Shown here: piece after piece, positions 53 through 60,311 of the stretch | Layout: every line of letters begins with the position of its first letter | Numbering within the stretch: position 1 is the stretch's first letter | Assembly (NCBI GenBank): GCA_034665065.1 | Contig: JAXDGL010000018.1 | Span: 20,126-84,125 of the forward strand | Origin: Thermoanaerobaculia bacterium | GTDB lineage: Bacteria > Acidobacteriota > Thermoanaerobaculia > Gp7-AA8 | Reading direction: 5' to 3' | Length of the DNA: 64,000 nt | Translations under genes and position numbers: made by a program | Notes under the pieces: generated by a model | What the model saw: only the letters and a program-made list of their open reading frames with translations | Databases searched by the model: none | What the model was told of the DNA's origin: nothing

Positions 53-2278
53 GTGATCGCACTCCTGCTCCTCGGCATCCTTCTGCCGGCCGCGTTGCTC
101 GTGGCCGGCGTTCGCCGATGGATCGCGCCCGTGCCGTGGTGGATCGCGATCCTGTTGATGGCGATGACGCTGGCCTTTCTGCACGGAGCAGTCTTCACGA
201 GCAAACTGCCGGTGCCGGTCGATGAGGTCGCGCGCGGCTATCCGTGGCGCGGTCTCTTCGGCGATGTCGTCGCCGCGAATCCGCTGACGAACGACACGGT
301 CAAACTATTTCTGCCGTGGATGCAGGTCGCGCGGGAGGAGCTGATGCACGGCCGCGCGCCGCTCTGGAATCGTTACGCCTTCGCCGGCTATCCACTCCTT
401 GGCAACGGCGAGTCGGCGCCATTCTCGCCGCTGTTTCTGGCGACGTTGACCGTGCCGTTGCCGAAGCAGATCGTGGCCATGGCGGCGCTCAAGATTTTCG
501 CGGCGCTTCTTTTTACGTATCTGTTTCTGAAGCGGGAAAAGGCGAACGATGCCGCTGCGCTCTTCGGTGCAGTCATCTTTGGCTTCTCGACCGTGATGAC
601 CGTCTTTCTCTACTACTCGACGGCGTCAGTCGTCGCGTTCATGCCTGCGGCGGCGTTTGCGTTGCTGCATGCGATCGACCGGCAGTCGAAGGCGAGCATC
701 GTGTTCGTCGCGCTCGTGATCGCGACGCTGCTGGCCAACGGCCATCCCGAGAGCGTCCTGCACATCGCGGTCGGATGCGGAGCGATTCTCCTGATCGAGC
801 TCGCACTGAGTGCGGATCGCCGCGACTGGTTGCGCCGCTTTCGCGCGCCGTTGATCGGAGTCGTAGCGGGACTGGCGCTTGGCGCGTCCACGTGGGTTCC
901 CGTTCTGGAACAGGTGCGCATCAGCGAGCGATTTGCGGCTTTGCGTGGCACGGCTCCGGTTCCGATGCAGCCGCTCACTTCCGCATGGGCGATCGTAAGC
1001 CCGAACGGGTTCGGCAATCCCGTGCGGCACAACTGGTCGTGGATGCAGCACTACGTTGGGGTGGCGATTTCGTACGCCGGTCTGTTGCCGCTCGCAATCG
1101 CGCTGGCGGCGCTGTTTTGGCGGCGTACGGAAACGCGCGACCGATGGCGCATCGTTCTTGCGATCCTGTTGTTCATCGTTGCGATGGACTGGGGCGTCAT
1201 CGGACACGCCCTCAATGGCGTTCCGCTGTTCAACATCGCCGCGAACGACAAGCTGCGATTCGTTTGCGTCTTTCTGATCGCGATTACCGCGGCCAAACTG
1301 CTGGATGTTTCGAAGGCGATGCTGGCGATGGCCGCGGCGCCGATCGTCGCATTGGCAATCTACGTTTACGTGAAACGGATCGATCTGATGCGGCCGGTCG
1401 ATCTTCTCGCCGTCGCCGCGATCCTTATTTTTTTCGCGCTGCCCCAGCGATTCCGCGCCTGGGGCGCCATGGTGCTCGTCGCCGCAGAGCTCTTCGCGCT
1501 CAACAGCGGATTCAATGCCCTCGTCGACGCGAAGTACTTTCGTCCGCCGCTGCCGATCGTCGATGCCTTACGTGCGCACGCGCCGCGCGATCCCTTCCGT
1601 GTCGCCGGGCTGGGATGGGTCCTTCTGCCGAATTCGTCCGGGCAATACGAACTCGAGGATGTCCGCGGCAGCGATCCGATGGCGCTCGCCTCGTACGATC
1701 ACTTCCTCCGCCGCTTCACCGACCCCGGCCTCGGCTGGCTTCCGCTGATCAGCGATGCGAATCGTCCCGAGGTCAGCTTCATGAACGTCCGATTTCTCTT
1801 TGGCTCGCCCGATGCGTCGCCCGGCGGCGCGTGGCGACTGCTTTATCGGGGCGCGGACGGAACGCTTTGGGAGAACCCCGCAGTGATGCCGCGCTTCTTC
1901 GCGCGCGGTGCTGAAATCCGCAGCCTGCGAAGCGATGCTCCGGGAGAATTTGCGATGACGGTCATTGCTCCGTCCTCAACGCTGGTCGAATCGAGCGAAG
2001 TGCTCGCTCCGGGACGCCGCGTCTATGTCGGCGGTCATCGCGCGCCGCTTCGTCACGTCGGCGATACGTTCATCGGATTCGACGTGCCTGCAGGAACATC
2101 GGAGGTTCGCGTTGTCTATCGTCCGTTGAGTTTCTATGGCTCGTGTGTGATTGCGGTGATTTCGGTGCTCGCGATGTGGCTTTGGCCCGTGCAAAATCGA
2201 GTCGAAACGAGCGGCTGTCATTTCGAATCGGCGGAACCGCGGGGGTGGCTGGGTGGCGGGAGCGGTGGAGCACGATGA
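53..2278 (+). CDS. Integral membrane protein with a multi-TM N-terminal region and a C-terminal soluble domain, YfhO-like or glycosyltransferase-like. The last ~20 codons run into repeat A1.
   Basis: 741-aa ORF. More than 10 hydrophobic helices lie in the first ~480 aa, followed by a hydrophilic C-domain. The C-terminus ...SGCHFESAEPRGW is encoded by repeat A sequence, so the true stop may be artefactual. Confidence 0.5.
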   Translation: MIALLLLGILLPAALLVAGVRRWIAPVPWWIAILLMAMTLAFLHGAVFTSKLPVPVDEVARGYPWRGLFGDVVAANPLTNDTVKLFLPWMQVAREELMHGRAPLWNRYAFAGYPLLGNGESAPFSPLFLATLTVPLPKQIVAMAALKIFAALLFTYLFLKREKANDAAALFGAVIFGFSTVMTVFLYYSTASVVAFMPAAAFALLHAIDRQSKASIVFVALVIATLLANGHPESVLHIAVGCGAILLIELALSADRRDWLRRFRAPLIGVVAGLALGASTWVPVLEQVRISERFAALRGTAPVPMQPLTSAWAIVSPNGFGNPVRHNWSWMQHYVGVAISYAGLLPLAIALAALFWRRTETRDRWRIVLAILLFIVAMDWGVIGHALNGVPLFNIAANDKLRFVCVFLIAITAAKLLDVSKAMLAMAAAPIVALAIYVYVKRIDLMRPVDLLAVAAILIFFALPQRFRAWGAMVLVAAELFALNSGFNALVDAKYFRPPLPIVDALRAHAPRDPFRVAGLGWVLLPNSSGQYELEDVRGSDPMALASYDHFLRRFTDPGLGWLPLISDANRPEVSFMNVRFLFGSPDASPGGAWRLLYRGADGTLWENPAVMPRFFARGAEIRSLRSDAPGEFAMTVIAPSSTLVESSEVLAPGRRVYVGGHRAPLRHVGDTFIGFDVPAGTSEVRVVYRPLSFYGSCVIAVISVLAMWLWPVQNRVETSGCHFESAEPRGWLGGGSGGAR

Positions 2279-2378
2279 GAAATCCCCTGCGTCTCACATC
2301 GGCGGGGGATTCCTCGACCGTGCTTCACCGCTCCCGCCCGCACTTCCACCCCACGGTTCCGCCGGCTCGGAATGACAG
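2216..2378. repeat. Repeat family A copy A1, a ~163-bp imperfect palindrome (MITE/REP-like).
   Basis: Termini are tgtcatttcgaatcggcggaaccgcggg ... cccacggttccgccggctcggaatgacag. Inner arms are cgggagcggtggagcacgatgagaaatcccc / ggggattcctcgaccgtgcttcaccgctcccg. The same element recurs at 2424, 16954 and 25950. Confidence 0.8.
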
Positions 2379-2423
2379 CGCACCGCACGCTCTCCTCCGC
2401 ATCTCCGCGTGATAGCGAGGGAC

Positions 2424-2585
2424 TGTCATTTCGAAACGGCGGAACTGCGGGGGCGGCTGGGTGGCGGGAGCGGTGGAGCACGATGAGAAATCCCCTTCGT
2501 CTCACATCGGCGGGGGATTCCTCGACCGTGCTTCACCGCTCCCGCCCGCACCTCCTTCCCGCGTTCCGCCGGCTCGGAATGACAG
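2424..2585. repeat. Repeat family A copy A2, tandem to A1.
   Basis: Same termini and inner arms as A1. It is followed by a tctccgcgtctccgcgtga motif that also occurs at 20451. Confidence 0.8.
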
Positions 2586-2650
2586 CGCACCCCACGCTCT
2601 CCCTCCGCATCTCCGCGTCTCCGCGTGACAATGCTTTTTAAATCATTGAG

Positions 2651-10395: not shown

Positions 10396-10922
10396 CGCGC
10401 GTGCAGATACTCGGGCGGAATCGGATGCGCCGCGTCTTCCTCTTCCCATAAGATCGTCAGCACCTTCCAGTCCTCTCCGATTTTCACGAGCTGAAAACTA
10501 TTGATGCCGCGCGCGAATGCTTTGTCGTCCGCGGATTCATGGCGTGACTCGTAGGTACTGAACACATGCGCGATGTCGCCGAAGCGATCCTCGGAGTTGT
10601 GGACCGGCCTCTCGAAAAAGCCATGCTCCTTGAAGTAGGCGCCAGCCTTTTCCGCGTACTCCTTTGGCGTCATCACGTTTGCTGTGATGGCACCGTTCAC
10701 CCGCTTCGTCGAGATCAGCCGTGCTCCTGGTGCAAAGAGCGCTTCGAAACGGTCCCAATCGCGCCGTCCTGCGGGTCCGGAGATGACGTTGTAAACAGCG
10801 AGCACGGTCGATTCGATCGCAAAAGCGTCGGACCCAGGTTGAGGCCGTACCTCCGACGGTTTCATCGATGCACAGCCCGAGGCGGCGAGGAACAGAAGCG
10901 TCAGGAGAGCACAGTTTCTCAT
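10392..10922 (-). CDS. NTF2/SnoaL-like lipoprotein, first gene of the ABC operon.
   Basis: Lipobox LAASGC in the signal peptide. Its stop overlaps the ATPase start. Confidence 0.55.
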   Translation of the reverse strand: MRNCALLTLLFLAASGCASMKPSEVRPQPGSDAFAIESTVLAVYNVISGPAGRRDWDRFEALFAPGARLISTKRVNGAITANVMTPKEYAEKAGAYFKEHGFFERPVHNSEDRFGDIAHVFSTYESRHESADDKAFARGINSFQLVKIGEDWKVLTILWEEEDAAHPIPPEYLHAR

Positions 10923-11061
10923 TGCGCCGAGTATAAAGCGGGCGTGGATCGTGGCAGGCGTGGATCGTGGCAGCAGGAAGCCGGTGAGAGCGCTGAGAGC
11001 GGTTCCTTATCTCATTCTGGCTATCTTCTTGCGTACTCATCCGCAGGAAGGAGATTTCGAA

Positions 11062-11367
11062 ATGAAGAAAATCATGACAGTTCTCGCCGCCGCCTCGCTG
11101 GTGATCGCCATGGGTTGCGTGGAAAAGAAGACCGAATCGACGTCGACAGTGAGTGGCACCGACACGGTGTCCAGCAGCACGACGACCGTGTCGACGACGG
11201 TGCCGACGGTCGACACCGCGACGACCGCCGCAGTGAAAGCCGAGGTAAAGGAAGCCGGGCATGATGCCGCCGACGCCGCGCGCGACGCAGCGCACGCCAC
11301 CGGCACAGCGATGGAGACCGCTGGGAAAGAGATCCAGAAGCAGACGAAGCCGCCGAAAAAGAACTGA
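11062..11367 (+). CDS. Small Ser/Thr/Ala-rich lipoprotein.
   Basis: aggaaggag ribosome-binding site. MKKIMTVLAAASLVIAMGC lipobox. A low-complexity T/S/V stretch is followed by a charged tail. Confidence 0.55.
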   Translation: MKKIMTVLAAASLVIAMGCVEKKTESTSTVSGTDTVSSSTTTVSTTVPTVDTATTAAVKAEVKEAGHDAADAARDAAHATGTAMETAGKEIQKQTKPPKKN

Positions 11368-11370
11368 GTT

Positions 11371-11394
11371 TTTTGCGTGCGCCGGGGGGCGCAC
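11371..11394 (+). terminator. GC hairpin between the lipoprotein gene and the heptamer array.
   Basis: gcgtgcgcc-gggg-ggcgcacgc, preceded by tttttt and followed by a U-rich gttgtcg array. It could terminate in either direction. Confidence 0.35.
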
Positions 11395-11475
11395 GCGTTG
11401 TCGGTTCTCGGTTCTCGGTTGTCAGTTGTCGGTTGTCGGTTGTCGGTTCTCGAGTTGTCGGTTGTCGATTCCTCC
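11395..11475. repeat. Tandem 7-bp array (gttgtcg / gttctcg units) forming the left flank of the IS110 element.
   Basis: About 11 heptamer units. The same unit family occurs at 13444-13480 and at 40968 and 41263. Confidence 0.85.
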
Positions 11476-11682
11476 CGTTGTCGGTTGATTAAGGTGTCGG
11501 GCTCGGATGCCATTGACGGCGGCGATCAGCTCGGTGAGATCGTCGTCCGTCGAATCTCGGGTCACGACGCGCCGGAGGCGCGAAAGACGGTAGAGAAGAT
11601 GGAGTGACCCGCGCGCTCAATGTACCTTTTCGTGGGTTGAACCCTTGAGAGGAACAGAGCCACATACAAGGAGGAACGGGTC

Positions 11683-12780
11683 ATGAAGATTATCTACTGG
11701 ATTGGGATCGACGATCACGCAGACAAGTGGACCATTGCGCAGTACCGAGGCGATGAAGAGCGGCCGAGTAAAGAGTTCGAGCTGGTTCCGGATGAGAAGG
11801 GCTGGCGGCGCCTGCTTTCTCATCTGAAGGGACTGGACGCTGAGGTACGGATCGTTTACGAGGCCGGCCCTTGCGGGTACGAACTGTATCGAAGGCTGAC
11901 CAAGGCGGGCTACAAGTGCCAGGTGGCGGCTCCGGCACTTACACCGCGGAAGCCGGGCGAGAGGGTAAAGACCAACCGCCGGGACGCAGCGAAGTTGGGT
12001 CGGTATCTTCGAGGAAACGATCTGACCTTCGTGGTCGTGCCGGACGATGATCGGGAATCGCTACGCGATCTGATGCGCTCGCGAGAGACGGCAGTGAAAG
12101 ACGTCGGACGAGTGCGGAAGCAGATCGTTCATCTTCTGCTTCGGTATGGACATCGATACCGCGAGGGACAGGCCTGGACGCTACGCTTCTGGTCGTGGTT
12201 GAAGAAGATCAAGCTAGCCGGCGCGCACAGCCGATTTGTGCTGGACGAGTTGATCAGCGAGCTCGAACATCGGATCAGCAAGGTCGAGCGATATGACGAG
12301 CAAGTCGAACTTGCCGCGCAGAGACCTGAGTATCAACCGTACTTTGCAGCACAGCGCACGCTGCGAGGAATCAATACGCTCTCGGCGATGACGGTTCTGT
12401 CCGAGTTGGGTGACCTGCGCCGGTTCGGTACGGCGCCGCAGATCATGTCGGCGGTCGGAGTGGTTCCGTCCGAGTCCAGCACGGGCGACAAGACCAACCG
12501 CTACGGAATTACCAAGACCGGCAACGCGCACGTTCGCCGGGTCATGGTCGAAGCAGCGTGGCAGTACCAGCGACGGCTCTCACTCGGACGAACCATCAAG
12601 GCTCGCCGGAAAGGCCAGCCCAGGGAGATCGTCGAAATTGCCGAGAAGTGCGAGAAGCGATTGAACGCAAAGTTTCACCGGCTCACGAGCCGGAACAAGA
12701 AGTCGACCGTTGCAGTCGTCGCCGTGGCGCGAGAGCTCATCGGCTTCGTCTGGGCGATCGGACAAATCGCGCATCCCTAG
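11683..12780 (+). CDS. IS110-family transposase with a DEDD N-domain and a Transposase_20 C-domain.
   Basis: ggagga ribosome-binding site. GIDDHADKW N-terminal motif. C-terminal LSELGDLRRFGTAPQIMSAVGVVPSESSTGDKTNRYGITKTGNAHVRRVMVEAAW. Confidence 0.92.
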   Translation: MKIIYWIGIDDHADKWTIAQYRGDEERPSKEFELVPDEKGWRRLLSHLKGLDAEVRIVYEAGPCGYELYRRLTKAGYKCQVAAPALTPRKPGERVKTNRRDAAKLGRYLRGNDLTFVVVPDDDRESLRDLMRSRETAVKDVGRVRKQIVHLLLRYGHRYREGQAWTLRFWSWLKKIKLAGAHSRFVLDELISELEHRISKVERYDEQVELAAQRPEYQPYFAAQRTLRGINTLSAMTVLSELGDLRRFGTAPQIMSAVGVVPSESSTGDKTNRYGITKTGNAHVRRVMVEAAWQYQRRLSLGRTIKARRKGQPREIVEIAEKCEKRLNAKFHRLTSRNKKSTVAVVAVARELIGFVWAIGQIAHP

Positions 12781-13085
12781 AACCAACACTTGTGCAGCCG
12801 TGCCGTCGGCCGAGGGTCCGGCAATCGAAAGGAGAACCCTCGACACCGGCTATTCCTGACACGAGAACACCCGTGATTCACGCACAGTAGATCGAGGAAG
12901 CTCCCGACGGACACATGTCGTGCGGAACCAACCCGCGTATATCAGTGTGATCATCGTCGCTGCATTCCCCTCGGTCGACGGGACGGCTGCAAACCAGAAT
13001 CAAAAGTCAAAAGCTCATCAAGGAGAAAAACAGAGTCAAAAGCAAACGAGCAGCGCGGTTTGACAAGTCACTCCATATCAGCCGG

Positions 13086-13375
13086 TGGCAAGCGAGCAAC
13101 GAGCGCCGCCACCGGATAACGAGCGATTAAGAATCCCGCCCCGGCAGGGGCGGCAGAGAAGTACACGGACCATCCACGCATTTTTTCTTGGCCATATGAA
13201 AATACGTCCCGTCAGCGCGGAACGTTTCGGAAATGCATTTCTCATCTGCGCACATCTCGATGTGGATACTCCGCGCTTGTGGTGAATGGTCTGCCGCCCC
13301 TCCCGGGGCGGGGCGTGGAGAAAACGCGATTACAGGTGGCGGCGCTCGTTCCTCGCTTGCCACCGGCTACCCTCT
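13086..13375 (+). ncRNA. Long imperfect palindrome (~80-bp arms, ~120-bp loop) in the 3' end of the IS, a candidate structured or bridge-like RNA. The strand is unknown.
   Basis: ggtggcaagcgagcaacgagcgccgccacc...cccgccccggcaggggcggcag pairs with ctgccgcccctcccggggcggg...ggtggcggcgctcgttcctcgcttgccacc. The mirrored ORFs MASEQRAPPP and MASEERAPPP are artefacts of this symmetry. Confidence 0.3.
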
Positions 13376-13724
13376 TCTGCGCCTCCGGCCCGTAGCGCGC
13401 GCAATCAACCGACAGCGCGCGCAGCGCAATTCAACGCAGAACCGGTTGTCGCTTGTCGGTTGAGGGTTGACGTTGTAAGTTGTTTGATTGCGTGCTGTCG
13501 AGGTGCCAGCGCTACTTCTCAGTTATGAGCGATCGTTGCATCATTGCCGGCGGAACGCTGGCGTCCTCGCCGGCTGGCTCGGCGGCGTCTCGCCGCCGCG
13601 CAGGAGCGACAATCACGATCATCCTGGCACGGATGGACGCGCCGCACCGACGCAGACACTTACGAGTCGATGCTCGAGAATGAGATTCTGCCGGCATTCA
13701 TCGCATAAGTTTCTTGGGGGTCTC

Positions 13725-25949: not shown

Positions 25950-26284
25950 TGTCATTTCGAATCGGCGGAACCGCGGGGCGGGAAGGGCGGAGCGGTGGAG
26001 CACGATGAGAAATCCCCCGCCTATGAAACGAATACTTTCGATCGTCAGGGGATTTCTCTCCGCGCTTCACTGCTCCCACCCTTCCACCCCCGCGGTTCCG
26101 CCGGATCGGAATGACAGCGTCAGGAAGCGGGGGATTTCTCATCGTGCTCCACCGCTCCGCCCACCCGGCCTGCCCCGCGGTTCCGCCGATTCGAAATGAC
26201 AGGCGGCAGGAAGGGGGATTTCTCATCGTCCACCGCTCCCACCCCCCCTTTCACCCCCGCGGTTCCGCCGGATCAGAATGACAA
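25950..26284. repeat. Cluster of repeat family A: one full copy (25950-26117) plus two tandem right-half copies.
   Basis: Three successive ...ccgcggttccgccg(g/a)(a/t)tc(g/a)gaatgaca ends lie at 26117, 26202 and 26284. Confidence 0.8.
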
Positions 26285-41009: not shown

Positions 41010-41291
41010 TCTTCCAAGCCAGCTAAACCTACGAATCGAGCGCCTTCTCCCCCACGCTTTTTGTGGAGGAGAAGGTGCCGAAGGCGGATGAGGGGGGCGT
41101 TAATCGCGGCAGGCGCTGTGTTCGACGCAAGGTTGCTGGGAAGTGCTAAAAATCCCCACCCCCTCATCCGGCCTTCGGCCACCTTCTCCCCCACTGAAAA
41201 GCGTGGTGGAGAAGGGGCTCGATCAAGATGGATGGCGGGGCTGAAAAACGGTGGGCAGAGCGAGACAACCGACAACCGACAACCGACAACG
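40968..41291. repeat. Composite palindromic element: inverted (gttgtcg)/(cgacaac) arrays around a ~190-bp near-perfect palindrome.
   Basis: Outer arrays lie at 40968-40995 and 41263-41291. The inner palindrome runs ccttctcccccacgctttttgtggaggagaaggtgccgaaggcggatgagggggg ... cccccctcatccggccttcggccaccttctcccccactgaaaagcgtggtggagaagg. Confidence 0.8.
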
Positions 41292-49352: not shown

Positions 49353-50825
49353 TCAGGATGACACATCCAACATCTCTCGAAGTTTCGGCTTTTCAACTTT
49401 TCCGTACGGTGTTCGCGGCAAGGACGCGACGAAGATGTAGCGCTTCGGCAGCTTGAACTTCGAAATGCGCTCCGCGAGATAGACTTCCAGCGTCTCCGCA
49501 GTGGCATCGCCGACGATAAACGCGACCGCTACCTCTCCCCACGTTTCATCCGCAACGGAGAGGACCGCAGCGTCAGCAACATTCGGATGCGAGACGAGCT
49601 GCGCCTCGATCTCGGCCGGATAGACGTTCACGCCGCCGCTGATGAACATCTCTTTCTTGCGGCCGGCGATGTAGAAAAATCCTTCGTCATCGCGTCGTGC
49701 GAGATCGCCGGTGTGCAGCCAGCCGTCAGCGTCGAACGCCTCGCGCGTCGCGTCGGGATTGTTCCAATAGCCGAGTGCGACGTGCGGCCCGCGGATCCAC
49801 ATCTCACCGACATCTCCCGCCGGCATCTCCGCGCCGTTTTCATCCACCACACGAATCTCGGTGAACATCATCGGCTTTCCGATCGATCCCGCCTTGCGCC
49901 GCGAGTCTTCCACGGTCATCGAGAAGCAATTCACGCCCGCTTCGGTCATGCCGTAACCCTGTTTCATCTCGATGCCGCGCTTCTGATAGGCATCGATGAT
50001 GTAGTGCGGGAGCGGCGCGCCGCCGGAGATGAACCAGCGCACGTGACGGAAATCCACGCTCGCGAATTCGGGCGACTCCATTAGCATCTTCAGCGTGGTC
50101 GGGACGCCGAGAACGACCGTCGCTTTCTCCCGTTCGATTCTGCGCAGAACTTCGGCTACATCAAACGTGCGATGCAACACGATCGTCCCGCCGACCGTGA
50201 AGATGGGGATGAGAAACGCGGCCACACCACCGGCGTGATAGAGCGGCGTGTAGATCGGACTGACGTCGTCCTCGCGCAGTCCCCAGTTCACGGCCGTGTT
50301 GTAGCCGTTCCACCAGAGCTGACGTTTCGGAATCATCACGCCTTTTGGTTTTCCGGTGGTGCCCGAAGTGTAGAGAAGGCAGTAAGGGTCTTCGGGTGTG
50401 GCGTGTGGGGAGTGGGGGGTGGTAGCGGGAGTCGCTTGTCGGGCGTCGGATTCCGACGAAACCGATACGCGGCACCCGATACCGGCCACGTCGAAGTCGC
50501 CGCTTGTGAACAGCACGCTCATCTCGCAGTCATCGACGATCTGCCGCCGTTCGTGATTCGTCGCGCGCGTCGAAAGCGGCACGACGATCGCGCCGCACTT
50601 GGCAGCGGCAAAGAAAAGCGCGAGAAAGTCGATCGAGTTGTGAAAGAGGATCCCGTATCGATCGCCTGGTCCGACTCCCGTTGCGACGACGGCAGCCGCG
50701 GCGCGCTCTGCGCGAGCGTTCAATTCCGCGTACGTGAGCCGCTCGCCGGTTTCGACCGCGACGAGGGCCAGCTTGCCGGGCGTGAGACGGGCCCGCTCCG
50801 CGAGCAGGTCGCCGTCGAAAATCAA
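49353..50825 (-). CDS. AMP-dependent synthetase/ligase (acyl-CoA synthetase-like).
   Basis: YTSGTTGKPKGV AMP-binding motif and C-terminal GRKKEM. Confidence 0.88.
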   Translation of the reverse strand: MIFDGDLLAERARLTPGKLALVAVETGERLTYAELNARAERAAAAVVATGVGPGDRYGILFHNSIDFLALFFAAAKCGAIVVPLSTRATNHERRQIVDDCEMSVLFTSGDFDVAGIGCRVSVSSESDARQATPATTPHSPHATPEDPYCLLYTSGTTGKPKGVMIPKRQLWWNGYNTAVNWGLREDDVSPIYTPLYHAGGVAAFLIPIFTVGGTIVLHRTFDVAEVLRRIEREKATVVLGVPTTLKMLMESPEFASVDFRHVRWFISGGAPLPHYIIDAYQKRGIEMKQGYGMTEAGVNCFSMTVEDSRRKAGSIGKPMMFTEIRVVDENGAEMPAGDVGEMWIRGPHVALGYWNNPDATREAFDADGWLHTGDLARRDDEGFFYIAGRKKEMFISGGVNVYPAEIEAQLVSHPNVADAAVLSVADETWGEVAVAFIVGDATAETLEVYLAERISKFKLPKRYIFVASLPRTPYGKVEKPKLREMLDVSS

Positions 50826-52723: not shown

Positions 52724-52821
52724 AGGGACGAGGGACGAGGGATGAGGGAAGGGGAACGGCTGGACCAGGTTTGCGAGGGTTCTCTCCCTCGTCCCTTATC
52801 CTTCGCCCCTCGTCCCTGTTC
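52724..52821. repeat. Inverted (gacgagg)/(cctcgtc) heptamer arrays around a ~25-bp core.
   Basis: gggacgagggacgagggatgagggaaggggaacgg ... ctccctcgtcccttatccttcgcccctcgtccctgttcc. Confidence 0.8.
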
Positions 52822-59967: not shown

Positions 59968-60059
59968 GGGACGTAGGTCGGACTCTCTAGTCCGACTTCT
60001 CACGTTCCACTGCGAACATTCCTTTGTCGGACTGGAGAGTCCGACCTACGTTTCGCCCG
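59968..60059. repeat. Repeat family C copy C2, a paired hairpin placed like a terminator after lon.
   Basis: gggacgtaggtcggactctctagtccgac ... gtcggactggagagtccgacctacgtttcgccc. Confidence 0.65.
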
Positions 60060-60113: not shown

Positions 60114-60311
60114 ATGGCTGACAATCCGCAGGACGACGCGAACGACAAAGGCTTCTGGGACGGTGGGTCCGCCGGGCATGGAACGAACAAAGAGTCGTCC
60201 GGCCGGCCGAACGGCTATCCCGGCAAGCGCTCCAATTCGCGCACCGGCTACCGCACGGACATCGAGTTCCCGCCGGAGACCGAGGGAAATCGCAGCCAGC
60301 AGAAAAAGTAA
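60114..60311 (+). CDS. Small hydrophilic protein (65 aa), possibly stress-related.
   Basis: Strong third-position GC bias. Gly/Asn/Lys-rich. Lies upstream of the ECF sigma gene. No ribosome-binding site is evident. Confidence 0.4.
   Translation: MADNPQDDANDKGFWDGGSAGHGTNKESSGRPNGYPGKRSNSRTGYRTDIEFPPETEGNRSQQKK

What the first reader, a model, noticed from the sequence alone, without database searches (positions are those of the whole stretch)
11395..13480. IS110-family element inserted in a gttgtcg heptamer array, with a long palindromic 3' non-coding region that may encode a bridge-like RNA
The transposase CDS (11683-12780) is flanked on both sides by same-orientation gttgtcg arrays (11395-11475 and 13444-13480). 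This is what insertion into one pre-existing array would produce. IS110-family recombinases are known to pick targets through a non-coding bridge RNA encoded in the element end, and some family members target REP-like repeats. Here the 660-bp 3' end contains an imperfect palindrome with ~80-bp arms (13086-13165 pairing with 13290-13375) and a nested loop. That is far more structure than a terminator needs. Heptamer arrays may therefore be the landing sites for this IS.
Basis: partly seen in the sequence, partly recalled or inferred. Interest (0 to 1): 0.58.

Follow-up and report, generated by a model that had tools for sequence, protein, structure and literature searches.

The report
RNA-guided insertion sequence inside a REP-like palindrome
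This is an ordinary though undescribed IS1111-type insertion sequence from an uncultured Acidobacteriota (Thermoanaerobaculia) genome: its own 3' guide RNA matches the GTAG-tagged hairpin repeat it sits in, the big palindrome is that host repeat and not the guide RNA, and the gttgtcg arrays are only neighbours.

Summary

- **Element.** The mobile element is 1,488 bp (11594-13081), not about 2.1 kb. It has 10-bp subterminal inverted repeats, an 89-bp left end, a 365-aa DEDD transposase (11683-12780) and a 301-bp right end.
- **Guide RNA.** The right end encodes a roughly 200-nt structured RNA (12793-12991), supported by compensatory changes in 14 homologues. Short loop segments of this RNA covary with each copy's own insertion site. 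The window copy has CACCGGCTA, the reverse complement of target TAGCCGGTG. Six other target variants are matched by their own guides. This is an IS1111-type seekRNA/bridge RNA.
- **Palindrome.** The palindrome at 13080-13371 is the target, not an IS product. It is a doublet of inverted REP-like units, each built as GC hairpin, 7 nt, GGTAG, imperfect palindrome, GC hairpin. The IS split the left unit at the AG of GTAG.
- **Independence of the repeat.** Intact units occur without any IS in 38 metagenome contigs. Sister copies sit in either end of one doublet, or in both ends.
- **Heptamer arrays.** The arrays lie 81 bp and 52 bp outside the REP-like doublet. Most homologous insertions lack them, and no guide segment matches them.

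Verdict: a new member of a known kind, of modest interest.

The parts
11397..11487 (+). GTTGTCG heptamer array (context only, not part of the IS or of its target)
   Evidence: TRF reports period 7, 12.6 copies. The double-unit pattern gives 13 matches against 0.72 expected. The array ends 81 bp before the REP-like unit.
11569..11581 (+). h1: short GC hairpin (gcgccggaggcgc) that opens the left REP-like unit
   Evidence: The same kind of hairpin lies 6-8 nt before GGTAG in 49 metagenome units and in nearly all IS loci.
11582..11593 (+). Left half of the target: 7-nt spacer gaaagac plus GGTAG. The AG at 11592-11593 is the left copy of the crossover (core) dinucleotide.
   Evidence: Intact units read ...GGTAGCCGGTGG... 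with a single AG. Occupied sites read GGT-AG-IS-AG-CCGGTGG.
11594..13081 (+). The insertion sequence proper, 1,488 bp counting one AG
   Evidence: blastn homology to 24 related loci begins at 11586-11591 and ends at 13084-13089 in the more distant relatives. The conserved ends are TAGAGAAGATGGAGTGAC and GTCACTCCATATCAG. Most homologues sit on 1.2-2.1 kb contigs.
11599..11608 (+). Left subterminal inverted repeat ATGGAGTGAC
   Evidence: Perfect 10-bp inverted repeat with 13067-13076, conserved in all loci.
11683..12780 (+). DEDD transposase/recombinase gene, 365 aa
   Evidence: Pfam PF01548 and PF02371. NCBIfam NF033542, 213 bits. More than 6,000 homologues at E <= 1e-20. It contains GVVPSESSTG, which fits the G--P----S/TG motif described in PMC11187229.
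12793..12991 (+). Guide RNA gene (seekRNA/bridge-RNA type). A long closing stem, 12793-12816 with 12968-12991, encloses two loop modules.
   Evidence: RNAalifold on 14 homologues gives 51 pairs. 97.8% of cells are paired, and 11 pairs change on both sides, reached by 0 of 500 shuffles. Slid controls pair in only 28-50% of cells. G-U pairs at several columns fit only the + strand. No Rfam family matches.
12844..12852 (+). Guide segment 1, CACCGGCTA. It is complementary to the target top strand 5'-TAGCCGGTG-3' (T, core AG and the right flank).
   Evidence: It covaries with the target in 7 target types. In the own-versus-cross match matrix the diagonal is the row maximum in 9 of 10 rows, with means of 7.8 and 4.7 nt. 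L150 is a further case.
12884..12893 (+). Guide segment 2, ACAGTAGATC. It has the same sense as the left junction (left flank, core AG, first bases of the IS), so it would pair with the bottom strand.
   Evidence: It covaries in L010 (CATTAGAC), L016 (CCTAGAC), L009 (GGTAGATA) and L008 (GGTAGAGA).
12939..12945 (+). ATATCAG in the second loop module, which equals the right IS end plus core. Candidate donor guide.
   Evidence: L013 has ATACCAG both in this loop and at its own right end, CCATACCAG.
13060..13065 (+). Outward-facing TTGACA. It is a candidate -35 box of a promoter formed at the circle junction, with GAAGAT from the left end 17 nt further on.
   Evidence: It is conserved in position across the loci, and an NANNAT hexamer is conserved in the left end. 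The promoter itself is inferred from published IS1111/IS110 biology (PMC11187229).
13067..13076 (+). Right subterminal inverted repeat GTCACTCCAT
13082..13153 (+). Remainder of the interrupted left REP-like unit: imperfect palindrome H2 (13082-13115), about 20 nt, then GC hairpin h3 (13136-13153)
   Evidence: The architecture is the same as in IS-free metagenome units. h3 matches units in L118, L068, L108, L124, L064 and L102.
13154..13293 (.). Interior of the doublet. It is unique to this locus and is about 110 nt longer than in related doublets.
   Evidence: No match in any fetched locus. The related doublet in L118 has about 22 nt here.
13294..13391 (-). Intact right REP-like unit in inverted orientation: h3' 13294-13311, H2' 13334-13366, CTACC 13367-13371, spacer, h1' 13379-13391. 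It holds an unoccupied perfect target at 13355-13371 on the - strand.
   Evidence: Exact GGTAGCCGGTGGCAAGC on the - strand. Arm complementarity is shown.
13444..13490 (+). Degenerate GTTGTCG-like run (context only, not part of the element)
   Evidence: One 14-mer hit with 1 mismatch, an 83% copy of the left array, and no TRF report.

Best explanation
An IS1111-type, RNA-guided insertion sequence of 1,488 bp (11594-13081) has inserted into one unit of a host REP-like doublet.

**Shown**
- The element has 10-bp subterminal inverted repeats, a short left end, a DEDD transposase and a 301-bp right end.
- The right end encodes a conserved, roughly 200-nt structured RNA (12793-12991).
- One internal loop of that RNA carries two short variable segments. 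One is complementary to the top strand of the target (TAG + right flank). The other has the sense of the left flank + AG.
- Both segments change in step with the insertion site across homologues.
- A second loop carries the sequence of the right IS end + AG.
- The target is the tag end of a repeat unit built as GC hairpin, 7 nt, GGTAG, imperfect palindrome, GC hairpin. The crossover dinucleotide is the AG of GTAG.

**Inferred from published IS1111/IS110 biology**
- The element excises as a circle, abutting TTGACA in the right end with a -10-like hexamer in the left end.
- Transposase and RNA form a complex. The RNA pairs with both strands of the target and with the joined ends, and the DEDD enzyme exchanges strands at AG.

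**Consequences**
- These repeat units occur as inverted doublets, so either end of a doublet, or both, can be hit.
- The large palindrome at 13080-13371 is simply that doublet.
- The gttgtcg arrays are a separate feature of intergenic DNA in this lineage.
For: **Boundaries**
- blastn to 24 loci limits homology to about 11589-13085 in distant relatives.
- The ends and the 10-bp subterminal repeats are conserved in all loci.

**The target is a host repeat, not IS cargo**
- L011 and L015 come from the same genome and their IS copies are 97% identical. Their flanks are swapped and reverse-complemented, and the hairpin interior is inverted. This means the IS sits in opposite ends of the same palindromic element.
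- L012 has two IS copies tail to tail that share one palindrome.
- L003 has an intact unit 180 bp upstream that reads ...aagagaaGGTAGCCAGAGG....
- A metagenome scan for the intact 17-mer GGTAGCCGGTGGCAAGC gave 132 matches. Of these, 52 close the hairpin and 49 also have the upstream GC hairpin, in 38 loci. Only 2 of the 120 loci carry the IS motif.

**Guide RNA**
- The alignment of the 3' ends shows conserved stems with two variable segments.
- The consensus fold has 51 pairs. Eleven pairs carry compensatory changes, reached by 0 of 500 shuffles.
- Segment 1 matches its own target better than any other target type in 9 of 10 rows. L150 is a further confirming case.
- The donor-like ATATCAG becomes ATACCAG in L013, together with that copy's right end.

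**Protein**
- Pfam and NCBIfam assign it to the IS110 family of RNA-guided transposases.

**Agreement with the literature**
- IS1111-group elements have a short left end, a long right end, subterminal inverted repeats of 7-17 bp and an RNA encoded in the right end (PMC11208160).
- In their seekRNA the top-strand match lies 5' of the bottom-strand match (PMC11187229). The order is the same here.
- REP sequences are known targets of this family (PMC1525189; PMC11187229).
Against: - There is no expression or transposition data. RNA ends, circle formation and activity are all inferred.
- No sigma-70-type promoter was found in the linear element. The proposed junction -10 hexamer GAAGAT matches TATAAT at only 3 of 6 positions.
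- No segment complementary to the left IS end was identified, so donor recognition is only half explained.
- Segment 2 of the window copy matches its own left flank imperfectly (ACAGTAGA against ACGGTAGA).
- L010 sits in a target with one mismatch to its guide, and L017 matches only 5 contiguous nt.
- Only one IS copy and two units of this repeat are present in the 64-kb window. Copy number in the host genome is unknown.
- No empty site at this locus could be recovered.
- The same-orientation heptamer runs on both sides of the doublet remain unexplained.
Confidence: 0.85

Rival explanations
1. The IS landed in a single pre-existing gttgtcg array and split it. The palindrome 13086-13375 is IS-encoded and yields the bridge-like RNA that reads the heptamer.
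For: - GTTGTCG-type runs lie on both sides in the same orientation.
- GTTGTCG or CGACAAC runs also occur near related copies: L003 and L005 and a short remnant in L150.
Against: - The arrays are 81 and 52 bp from the repeat unit that is actually interrupted.
- All junctions are GGT-AG|IS|AG-hairpin.
- 11 of the 15 other genome loci, plus L149 and L151, have no heptamer array nearby.
- In L005 both arrays lie on the same side of the IS.
- No 6-mer of GTTGTCG or CGACAAC occurs in the guide RNA.
- The palindrome occurs without the IS in many metagenome loci.
Confidence: 0.02
2. The element is about 1.83 kb (11567-13393). It would be bounded by the 27-nt inverted repeat found (11567-11593 / 13367-13393), and the palindrome would be a passenger or structural module that travels with the IS.
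For: - The 27-nt, 85% inverted repeat brackets the transposase gene and the palindrome.
- The same arrangement, IS followed by a doublet ending in CTACC + hairpin, is seen in L011, L015 and L118.
Against: - The '27-nt repeat' is h1 + spacer + GGTAG of two inverted repeat units. These units exist independently of the IS.
- L011 and L015 differ by inversion of the supposed passenger together with a swap of flanks.
- L012 has two transposase genes sharing one palindrome.
- More distant homologues are followed by other hairpins, or by a single unit only.
- In L003 the partner unit lies upstream of the IS.
Confidence: 0.04
3. The insertion model is right, but the target is not a true REP (a repeat mobilised by a RAYT transposase). 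It could be another kind of structured intergenic repeat, such as a small RNA gene or terminator module related to the Rfam Acido-Lenti-1 motif. The IS would then use it only as a conserved 'safe' sequence.
For: - The unit carries extra GC hairpins (h1, h3) that classical REPs lack.
- Only two units of this family are in the 64-kb window.
- Rfam RF01687 gives repeated sub-threshold hits of 22-25 bits, against a gathering score of 37, on the part [..GG-CUACC-spacer-h1]. The architecture is the same.
Against: - The unit has a GTAG tag directly followed by an imperfect palindrome and occurs in inverted doublets, as GTAG REPs are defined in PMC3733652.
- Up to 4 units occur on one 1.6-kb stretch (L128).
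- A second, classical GTAG REP doublet exists in the same window at 59973/60049 and again in L021. GTAG-REP biology is therefore present in this lineage.
Confidence: 0.3

Closest known systems
IS1111-group insertion sequences with a 3' seekRNA/bridge RNA (ISEc11, ISPa11, ISKpn4; Siddiquee et al. 2024, PMC11187229; Durrant et al. 2024, PMC11208160)
   Same: - A DEDD N-terminal domain plus the PF02371 C-terminal domain, with a G--P----TG motif.
- Subterminal inverted repeats (10 bp here, 7-17 bp in the group) with short terminal extensions.
- A short left end (89 bp) and a long right end (301 bp).
- A structured RNA encoded downstream of the transposase gene.
- The top-strand match lies 5' of the bottom-strand match.
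- The donor-related sequence sits in a multi-branched part of the fold.
- Insertion is orientation-specific and makes no real target duplication.
   Different: - The protein is 365 aa, against 330-350 aa quoted for the group.
- The host is an uncultured Thermoanaerobaculia (Acidobacteriota).
- The target sequence is different.
- Nothing has been tested experimentally.
- Only one of the two expected donor guides was identified.
IS621 and its bridge RNA (IS110 group)
   Same: - An RNA with separate target and donor loops, each reading both strands around a core dinucleotide.
- The natural target is a REP sequence (Choi et al. 2003, as cited in PMC11187229).
   Different: - In IS621 the RNA is encoded in the left end, upstream of the gene.
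- IS621 has no long subterminal repeats and its core is CT.
- The window protein gave no significant match to IS621 chains in the PDB sequence search. Its only hit was the ISCro4 transposase, E = 1.7e-07.
REP-occupying IS110-family elements of Pseudomonas and Sinorhizobium (ISPa11, ISPpu9, ISPpu10, ISPsy8, ISRm19, ISRm22; Tobes and Pareja 2006, PMC1525189)
   Same: Specific insertion at one fixed position of a repeated extragenic palindrome. Several copies per genome sit in different REP copies and in both genomic orientations.
   Different: - Different phylum and different REP family.
- Here the crossover falls in the AG of the GTAG tag.
- Across this clade the guides have been retargeted to at least 7 hairpin variants.
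GTAG-tagged REPs, BIMEs and REPINs (Di Nocera et al. 2013, PMC3733652; Nunvar et al. 2010, PMC2817692)
   Same: An unpaired GTAG tag at one end of an imperfect palindrome, an extragenic location, and units paired in inverted orientation that can fold into a larger hairpin.
   Different: - The palindrome is 34 nt with a large loop.
- Each unit is bracketed by two extra short GC hairpins.
- Doublet spacers are 20-130 nt.
- Copy number per genome and any RAYT association are unknown.
Rfam RF01687, Acido-Lenti-1 RNA motif (Weinberg et al. 2010, PMC2864571)
   Same: The model consensus is hairpin closed by CC..GG, then CUA, about 8 nt, then a GC hairpin with a UUCG-type loop. [quoted passage not shown] The taxon, Acidobacteria, is also the same.
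   Different: All hits stay below the gathering score: 16-25 bits against 37. The first hairpin is much longer here.

Membership tests
IS110 family (DEDD RNA-guided transposases) | Protein with the DEDD_Tnp_IS110 (PF01548) N-terminal domain and the Transposase_20 (PF02371) C-terminal domain | tested here: met
   Both Pfam domains score above their cut-offs. NCBIfam NF033542 scores 213 bits against a cut-off of 140.
IS1111 group within the IS110 family | Subterminal inverted repeats of 7-17 bp | tested here: met
   ATGGAGTGAC at 11599-11608 and GTCACTCCAT at 13067-13076, a perfect 10 bp. They lie 5 and 3 nt inside the ends and are conserved in all homologues. The criterion comes from PMC11208160.
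IS1111 group within the IS110 family | The long non-coding region lies downstream of the transposase gene (long right end, short left end) | tested here: met
   The left end is 89 bp and the right end 301 bp, using the boundaries. The criterion comes from PMC11187229 and PMC11208160.
IS1111 group within the IS110 family | The transposase groups phylogenetically with IS1111-type proteins (330-350 aa; GL-P----S/TG motif) | tested here: inconclusive
   The motif GVVPSESSTG is present by inspection. The protein is 365 aa, and no tree with ISfinder references could be built.
seekRNA / bridge RNA | A structured RNA in the non-coding end whose structure is conserved | tested here: met
   51 pairs, 97.8% paired, 11 pairs with compensatory change, 0 of 500 shuffles reaching that value, and low slid controls.
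seekRNA / bridge RNA | Loop segments complementary to both strands of the target that covary with the target | tested here: met
   Segments 1 and 2 were compared with their own and with foreign targets. There are 7 target types.
seekRNA / bridge RNA | Loop segments complementary to both strands of the donor (the joined IS ends) | tested here: inconclusive
   ATATCAG equals the right end plus core and covaries in L013. No segment matching the left end was found.
seekRNA / bridge RNA | The RNA is expressed, binds the transposase and is required for transposition | not testable with these tools
   This needs RNA-seq, co-purification and transposition assays.
GTAG-tagged REP / BIME / REPIN (the target) | A 20-40 bp imperfect palindrome with an unpaired GTAG at one end | tested here: met
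   GGTAG followed by the 34-nt CCGGTGGC...GCCACCGG. Variants with other stems are in L003, L008, L013 and L018.
GTAG-tagged REP / BIME / REPIN (the target) | Units commonly arranged as inverted pairs | tested here: met
   The window doublet. L054, L064, L080 and L138 have pairs of the 17-mer on opposite strands, about 150 bp apart where positions were listed. L011, L015 and L118 also show doublets.
GTAG-tagged REP / BIME / REPIN (the target) | High copy number within one genome (usually more than 100 copies) | not testable with these tools
   Only 2 units lie in the 64-kb window. L128 has 4 units and L134 has 3 on short stretches.
GTAG-tagged REP / BIME / REPIN (the target) | Association with a RAYT (Y1 HUH) transposase | not tested
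   No RAYT gene was looked for outside the window.
Rfam RF01687 Acido-Lenti-1 | Score at or above the family's gathering threshold of 37 bits | tested here: not met
   The best scores were 16-25 bits on 6 units.

The most novel reading that the evidence does not exclude
The clade to which this IS belongs (58-100% protein identity, in uncultured Thermoanaerobaculia and other Acidobacteriota) may be a specialised 'REP hunter'. Its crossover dinucleotide is always the AG of a (G)TAG tag. Its guide has been naturally reprogrammed at least seven times to follow different hairpin families.

Its target unit (GC hairpin, GTAG, palindrome, GC hairpin), which resembles the Rfam Acido-Lenti-1 'sRNA', may be an undescribed composite REP/REPIN class. 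Together with the locus-specific inverted heptamer arrays, it may form a distinctive intergenic architecture in this lineage.
Probability: 0.3. Interest if true: 0.45.

Novelty: new member of a known kind. Interest (0 to 1): 0.3.

Why it matters
- **Annotation.** Without the corrected boundaries this element would be recorded about 600 bp too long, and a host repeat would be mistaken for a guide RNA. PMC11187229 names wrongly recorded ends as a common problem for this family.
- **Guide-target pairs.** The set of homologues gives a natural series of matched guide and target pairs, with seven target variants. Such a series is useful for learning the pairing rules of IS1111-type guide RNAs, which are less well characterised than the IS621 bridge RNA.
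- **Reach of the biology.** GTAG-tagged REP-like doublets, and RNA-guided IS that home to them, extend to uncultured Acidobacteriota.
- **Scope.** None of this changes current understanding of how the system works.

Tried and rejected
- **Rfam on the region and on related loci.** No family covers the guide RNA. Long hairpins give spurious microRNA-precursor hits. Only sub-threshold Acido-Lenti-1 hits fall on the target unit.
- **Empty site.** Exact look-ups of the two neighbouring proteins returned only the same contig. The 89%-identical orthologue of the FG-GAP protein (P0121, L148) has conserved flanks but different genes between them. The pre-insertion state of this locus therefore could not be seen.
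- **Heptamer arrays as landing sites.** TRF on all loci finds arrays within 400-700 bp of the IS in only 4 of the 15 other genome loci, and within 400 bp of REP-like units in only 4 of 48 metagenome loci. Rejected.
- **The 27-nt inverted repeat (11567-11593 / 13367-13393) as IS termini.** Rejected. It is the outer part of two inverted repeat units.
- **A sigma-70 promoter for the guide RNA in the linear element.** None was found.
- **A guide for the left IS end in the second loop.** No convincing complementarity was found.
- **Other copies in the window.** tblastn finds only the one transposase gene. The 17-mer target occurs only at 13355-13371. A 9-nt guide match at about 60252 inside coding DNA is unoccupied.
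- **Unique flanks and doublet interior against all fetched loci.** No informative matches beyond the h3 hairpins.
Full report
**1. What is in the sequence**

The ORF at 11683-12780 (+) encodes a 365-aa protein. It carries the two Pfam domains of IS110-family transposases and matches the NCBIfam model 'IS110 family RNA-guided transposase' at 213 bits against a cut-off of 140.

The left GTTGTCG array is real. TRF places it at 11397-11487 with 12.6 copies, and the double-unit pattern gives 13 matches against 0.72 expected by chance. The right run at 13444-13480 is much weaker, with two clean units followed by degenerate ones. TRF does not report it.

The long palindrome is also real. Its arms are 13080-13113/13335-13368 (34 nt, 97% complementary) and 13135-13157/13290-13312 (23 nt, 96%). 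Folding z-scores are -7.9 and -10.5. The observation therefore stands, except for the strength of the right array and the extent attributed to the element.

**2. Where the element really ends**

The source is a Thermoanaerobaculia (Acidobacteriota) metagenome contig.

- blastn of 11200-13700 against 24 related genome loci shows homology from about 11586-11591 to 13084-13089 in the more distant relatives. In some closer ones it runs on to about 13117, or resumes at 13335-13389.
- All copies share the left terminus (G)GTAG-AGAAG-ATGGAGTGAC and the right terminus GTCACTCCAT-ATC-AG.
- ATGGAGTGAC and GTCACTCCAT form a perfect 10-bp subterminal inverted repeat, at 11599-11608 and 13067-13076.
- The element is therefore 11594-13081, or 1,488 bp counting one AG. 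Its left end is 89 bp and its right end 301 bp.
- This fits the 1.2-2.1 kb contigs on which most of the listed homologues sit.

**3. The palindrome is the target, not a product of the IS**

Three copies in one genome (CAWGEI010000003.1) settle this.

- The IS copies in L011 and L015 are 97% identical. The left flank of one is the reverse complement of the right flank of the other, and the hairpin interior is inverted between them. The simple reading is one palindromic host element with the IS in its left end in one case and in its right end in the other.
- L012 has two IS copies tail to tail that share a single palindrome, so both ends are occupied.
- L003 (93% protein identity) has an uninterrupted unit 180 bp upstream of the IS. 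Read on the reverse strand it is gccgcgtagcggc-aagagaa-GGTAG-CCAGAGGTGCGAGCGCAGCGAGCAACCTCTGG.

Comparing intact and occupied units gives the insertion point as GGT-AG-CC..., with the AG present on both sides of the IS.

- 52 matches close the hairpin (…GCCACCGG).
- 49 of these, in 38 loci, also have a short GC hairpin 4-10 nt upstream of GGTAG.
- The remaining matches look like chance hits in coding DNA.
- Only 2 of the 120 loci carry the IS motif.
- L054, L064, L080 and L138 have pairs of the 17-mer on opposite strands, about 150 bp apart where positions were listed. L128 has four direct copies.

The unit is [GC hairpin h1][6-7 nt, purine-rich][GGTAG][imperfect palindrome H2][about 22 nt][GC hairpin h3].

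In the window, the left unit is h1 11569-11581, spacer, GGTAG 11589-11593, then the IS, H2 13082-13115 and h3 13136-13153. The right unit is inverted and intact at 13294-13391. The h3 hairpins match units in six other loci. The 13154-13293 interior matches nothing and is about 110 nt longer than in the closely related doublet of L118.

An unpaired GTAG tag followed by an imperfect palindrome, with frequent inverted pairing, is how GTAG-type REPs are defined (PMC3733652). A second, classical GTAG REP doublet lies at 59973(+)/60049(-) in this window (GTAG-GTCGGACT…AGTCCGAC) and recurs in L021.

**4. The real guide RNA**

Alignment of the last 345 nt of 16 homologues shows a strongly conserved right end with a few short variable segments.

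- RNAalifold on 14 distinct sequences gives a roughly 200-nt fold (window 12793-12991). A 21-pair closing stem encloses two modules.
- On this structure 97.8% of cells pair, and 11 pairs show changes on both sides, reached by 0 of 500 shuffles. Sliding the partners by 1-3 columns drops pairing to 28-50%.
- G-U pairs at several columns fit only the + strand, the strand of the transposase gene.

The first module is an internal loop with two variable segments.

*Segment 1* (window 12844-12852, CACCGGCTA) is the reverse complement of the target TAGCCGGTG. Each of the other target types is matched by its own guide:

| Locus | Guide segment 1 | Own target |
|---|---|---|
| L003 | CTGGCTA | TAGCCAG |
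| L008, L013, L150 | CCCCGGCTA | TAGCCGGGG |
| L014 | CCGCGGCT | AGCCGCGG |
| L016 | CTTCCCTA | TAGGGAAG |
| L018 | GTGCCCTA | TAGGGCAC |
| L017 | GCaCTCCT | AGGAGaGC |

In an own-versus-cross matrix the diagonal is the row maximum in 9 of 10 rows, with means of 7.8 and 4.7 nt. The exception is L010, whose target carries one mismatch to its guide.

*Segment 2* (12884-12893) has the sense of the left junction. It covaries in L010 (CATTAGAC), L016 (CCTAGAC), L009 (GGTAGATA) and L008.

The second module contains ATATCAG (12939-12945), which equals the right IS end plus AG. L013 has ATACCAG both there and at its own right end. I could not find a segment matching the left IS end.

The order, with the top-strand match 5' of the bottom-strand match, is the order reported for IS1111-family seekRNAs (PMC11187229). 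The location in the right end and the multi-branched donor region agree with the IS1111-group bridge RNAs of PMC11208160. No Rfam family matches this RNA.

**5. Heptamer arrays**

- The arrays lie 81 bp left and 52 bp right of the interrupted repeat unit.
- Period-7 arrays lie within 400-700 bp of the IS in L003, L005, L012 and L015. They are absent near the other 11 genome loci. L149 and L151 also lack them, and L150 has only a two-unit remnant.
- In L005 both arrays lie on one side of the IS.
- Among 48 metagenome loci with canonical units, only 4 have even a weak period-7 repeat within 400 bp.
- No 6-mer of GTTGTCG or CGACAAC occurs in the guide RNA.

The arrays are therefore not the landing site. 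They are, however, a striking feature of this genome in their own right (see 'noticed in passing').

**6. Mechanism**

*Shown:* the element boundaries, the subterminal repeats, the transposase family, the conserved RNA structure, guide-target covariation, a fixed insertion point and orientation relative to the GTAG tag, and the independence of the target repeat from the IS.

*Inferred from published work on ISEc11, ISPa11 and IS621:* excision to a circle, a junction promoter, an RNA-protein complex that pairs with both strands of target and donor, and strand exchange at AG. The junction promoter would combine TTGACA at 13060-13065, a 17-nt spacer and GAAGAT from the left end. The -35 box and an NANNAT hexamer are conserved in position across loci.

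Because the targets come as inverted doublets, insertions occur in either genomic orientation and sometimes in both ends.

**7. Comparison with known systems, and novelty**

The element meets the tested criteria of the IS1111 group: subterminal inverted repeats, a long right end, an RNA encoded in the right end, and the guide order. Its behaviour matches the known REP-occupying members ISPa11, ISPpu9/10 and IS621. I could not place the protein on a tree, and at 365 aa it is somewhat long for the group.

The target meets the structural criteria of GTAG REPs. Copy number and RAYT association remain untested. The target unit resembles the Rfam Acido-Lenti-1 motif in layout but scores below threshold, at 16-25 bits against 37.

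Overall this is a new member of a known kind. It is useful as a natural series of retargeted guides, but not surprising.

**8. Limits**

- There are no expression or activity data.
- Donor recognition is only half explained.
- No empty site was recovered. The orthologous region of a related strain (L148) carries different genes between conserved flanks.
- Copy number in the host genome is unknown.
- The two same-orientation heptamer runs around the doublet remain unexplained.

Noticed in passing
window 30093-30132/30249-30313; 30910-30946/31045-31088; 40968-40991/41264-41290; 53649-53689/53772-53804; also 50394-50422, 52724-52749; L003 964-1070; L005 2784-2868; L012 2790-2820; L015 2841-2872/4589-4613: Many period-7 tandem arrays with locus-specific units (GAATGTT, AAGGATG, GTTGYCG, AGTGGGG and others). 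Most come as inverted pairs 100-270 bp apart in intergenic DNA, and several lie 5-40 nt from a start codon. The GTTGTCG unit recurs in at least three different MAGs and tends to end in GTTGATTGCGC. Function unknown. This may be more unusual than the IS itself.
   Followed up: partly
window 59973 (+) and 60049 (-); L021 567 (+) and 641 (-): A classical GTAG REP doublet: GTAG-GTCGGACT-ctct/ctcc-AGTCCGAC, two units in inverted orientation about 75 bp apart. It is shared between this genome and the closed Thermoanaerobaculia genome OY970380.1.
   Followed up: no
window 11569-11593 (-); L015 4550-4579; L088, L058, L066: Repeated sub-threshold hits (16-25 bits, gathering score 37) of Rfam RF01687, the Acido-Lenti-1 'sRNA'. 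They fall on the part H2'-CTACC-spacer-h1' of the REP-like unit, and the model has the same layout. That Rfam motif may itself be a REP-like repeat.
   Followed up: partly
window 41030-41230; L146 7547-7768: Another long palindromic intergenic repeat family (ccttctcccc…ggagaaggtgccgaaggcggatgagggg). In the window it lies between an inverted GTTGCCG/GACAACC array pair. It produces spurious plant microRNA-precursor hits in Rfam.
   Followed up: no
window 2208-2618 and 26075-26283: A 208-bp tandem duplication (93% identical) and an 82-bp repeat of 2.5 copies. By eye they share motifs such as ggaatgacagcg. Not characterised.
   Followed up: no
window 10823-13720 compared with L148 4065-5759: The orthologous region of a related strain has flanks 79-92% identical at the nucleotide level. 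Between the same flanking genes it carries a PALP-domain gene and a 150-aa gene, in place of the lipoprotein gene, arrays, IS and REP doublet. This is a variable island.
   Followed up: partly
L148 4165-4290: A palindrome TATGGAGTG-CGGTGGCGAAGCCACCG…CGGTGGCTTTGCCACCG-CACTCCATA. Its tips resemble the IS subterminal repeat (ATGGAGTG) and its hairpin resembles H2 of the target unit. It could be an IS-end-derived miniature element or only a coincidence.
   Followed up: no
window about 60240-60252 (-): GGTAGCCGGTG inside coding DNA matches the guide over 9 nt plus GGT, yet the site is unoccupied. This hints that hairpin context matters as well as base pairing, as a 2026 preprint proposes for ISPpu10 (10.64898/2026.03.19.712850; abstract seen).
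   Followed up: no
window 13548-13610: A GC-rich stretch of about 60 nt just upstream of the FG-GAP gene matches L122 (85%), L075 and L090. It is probably another small dispersed repeat.
   Followed up: no
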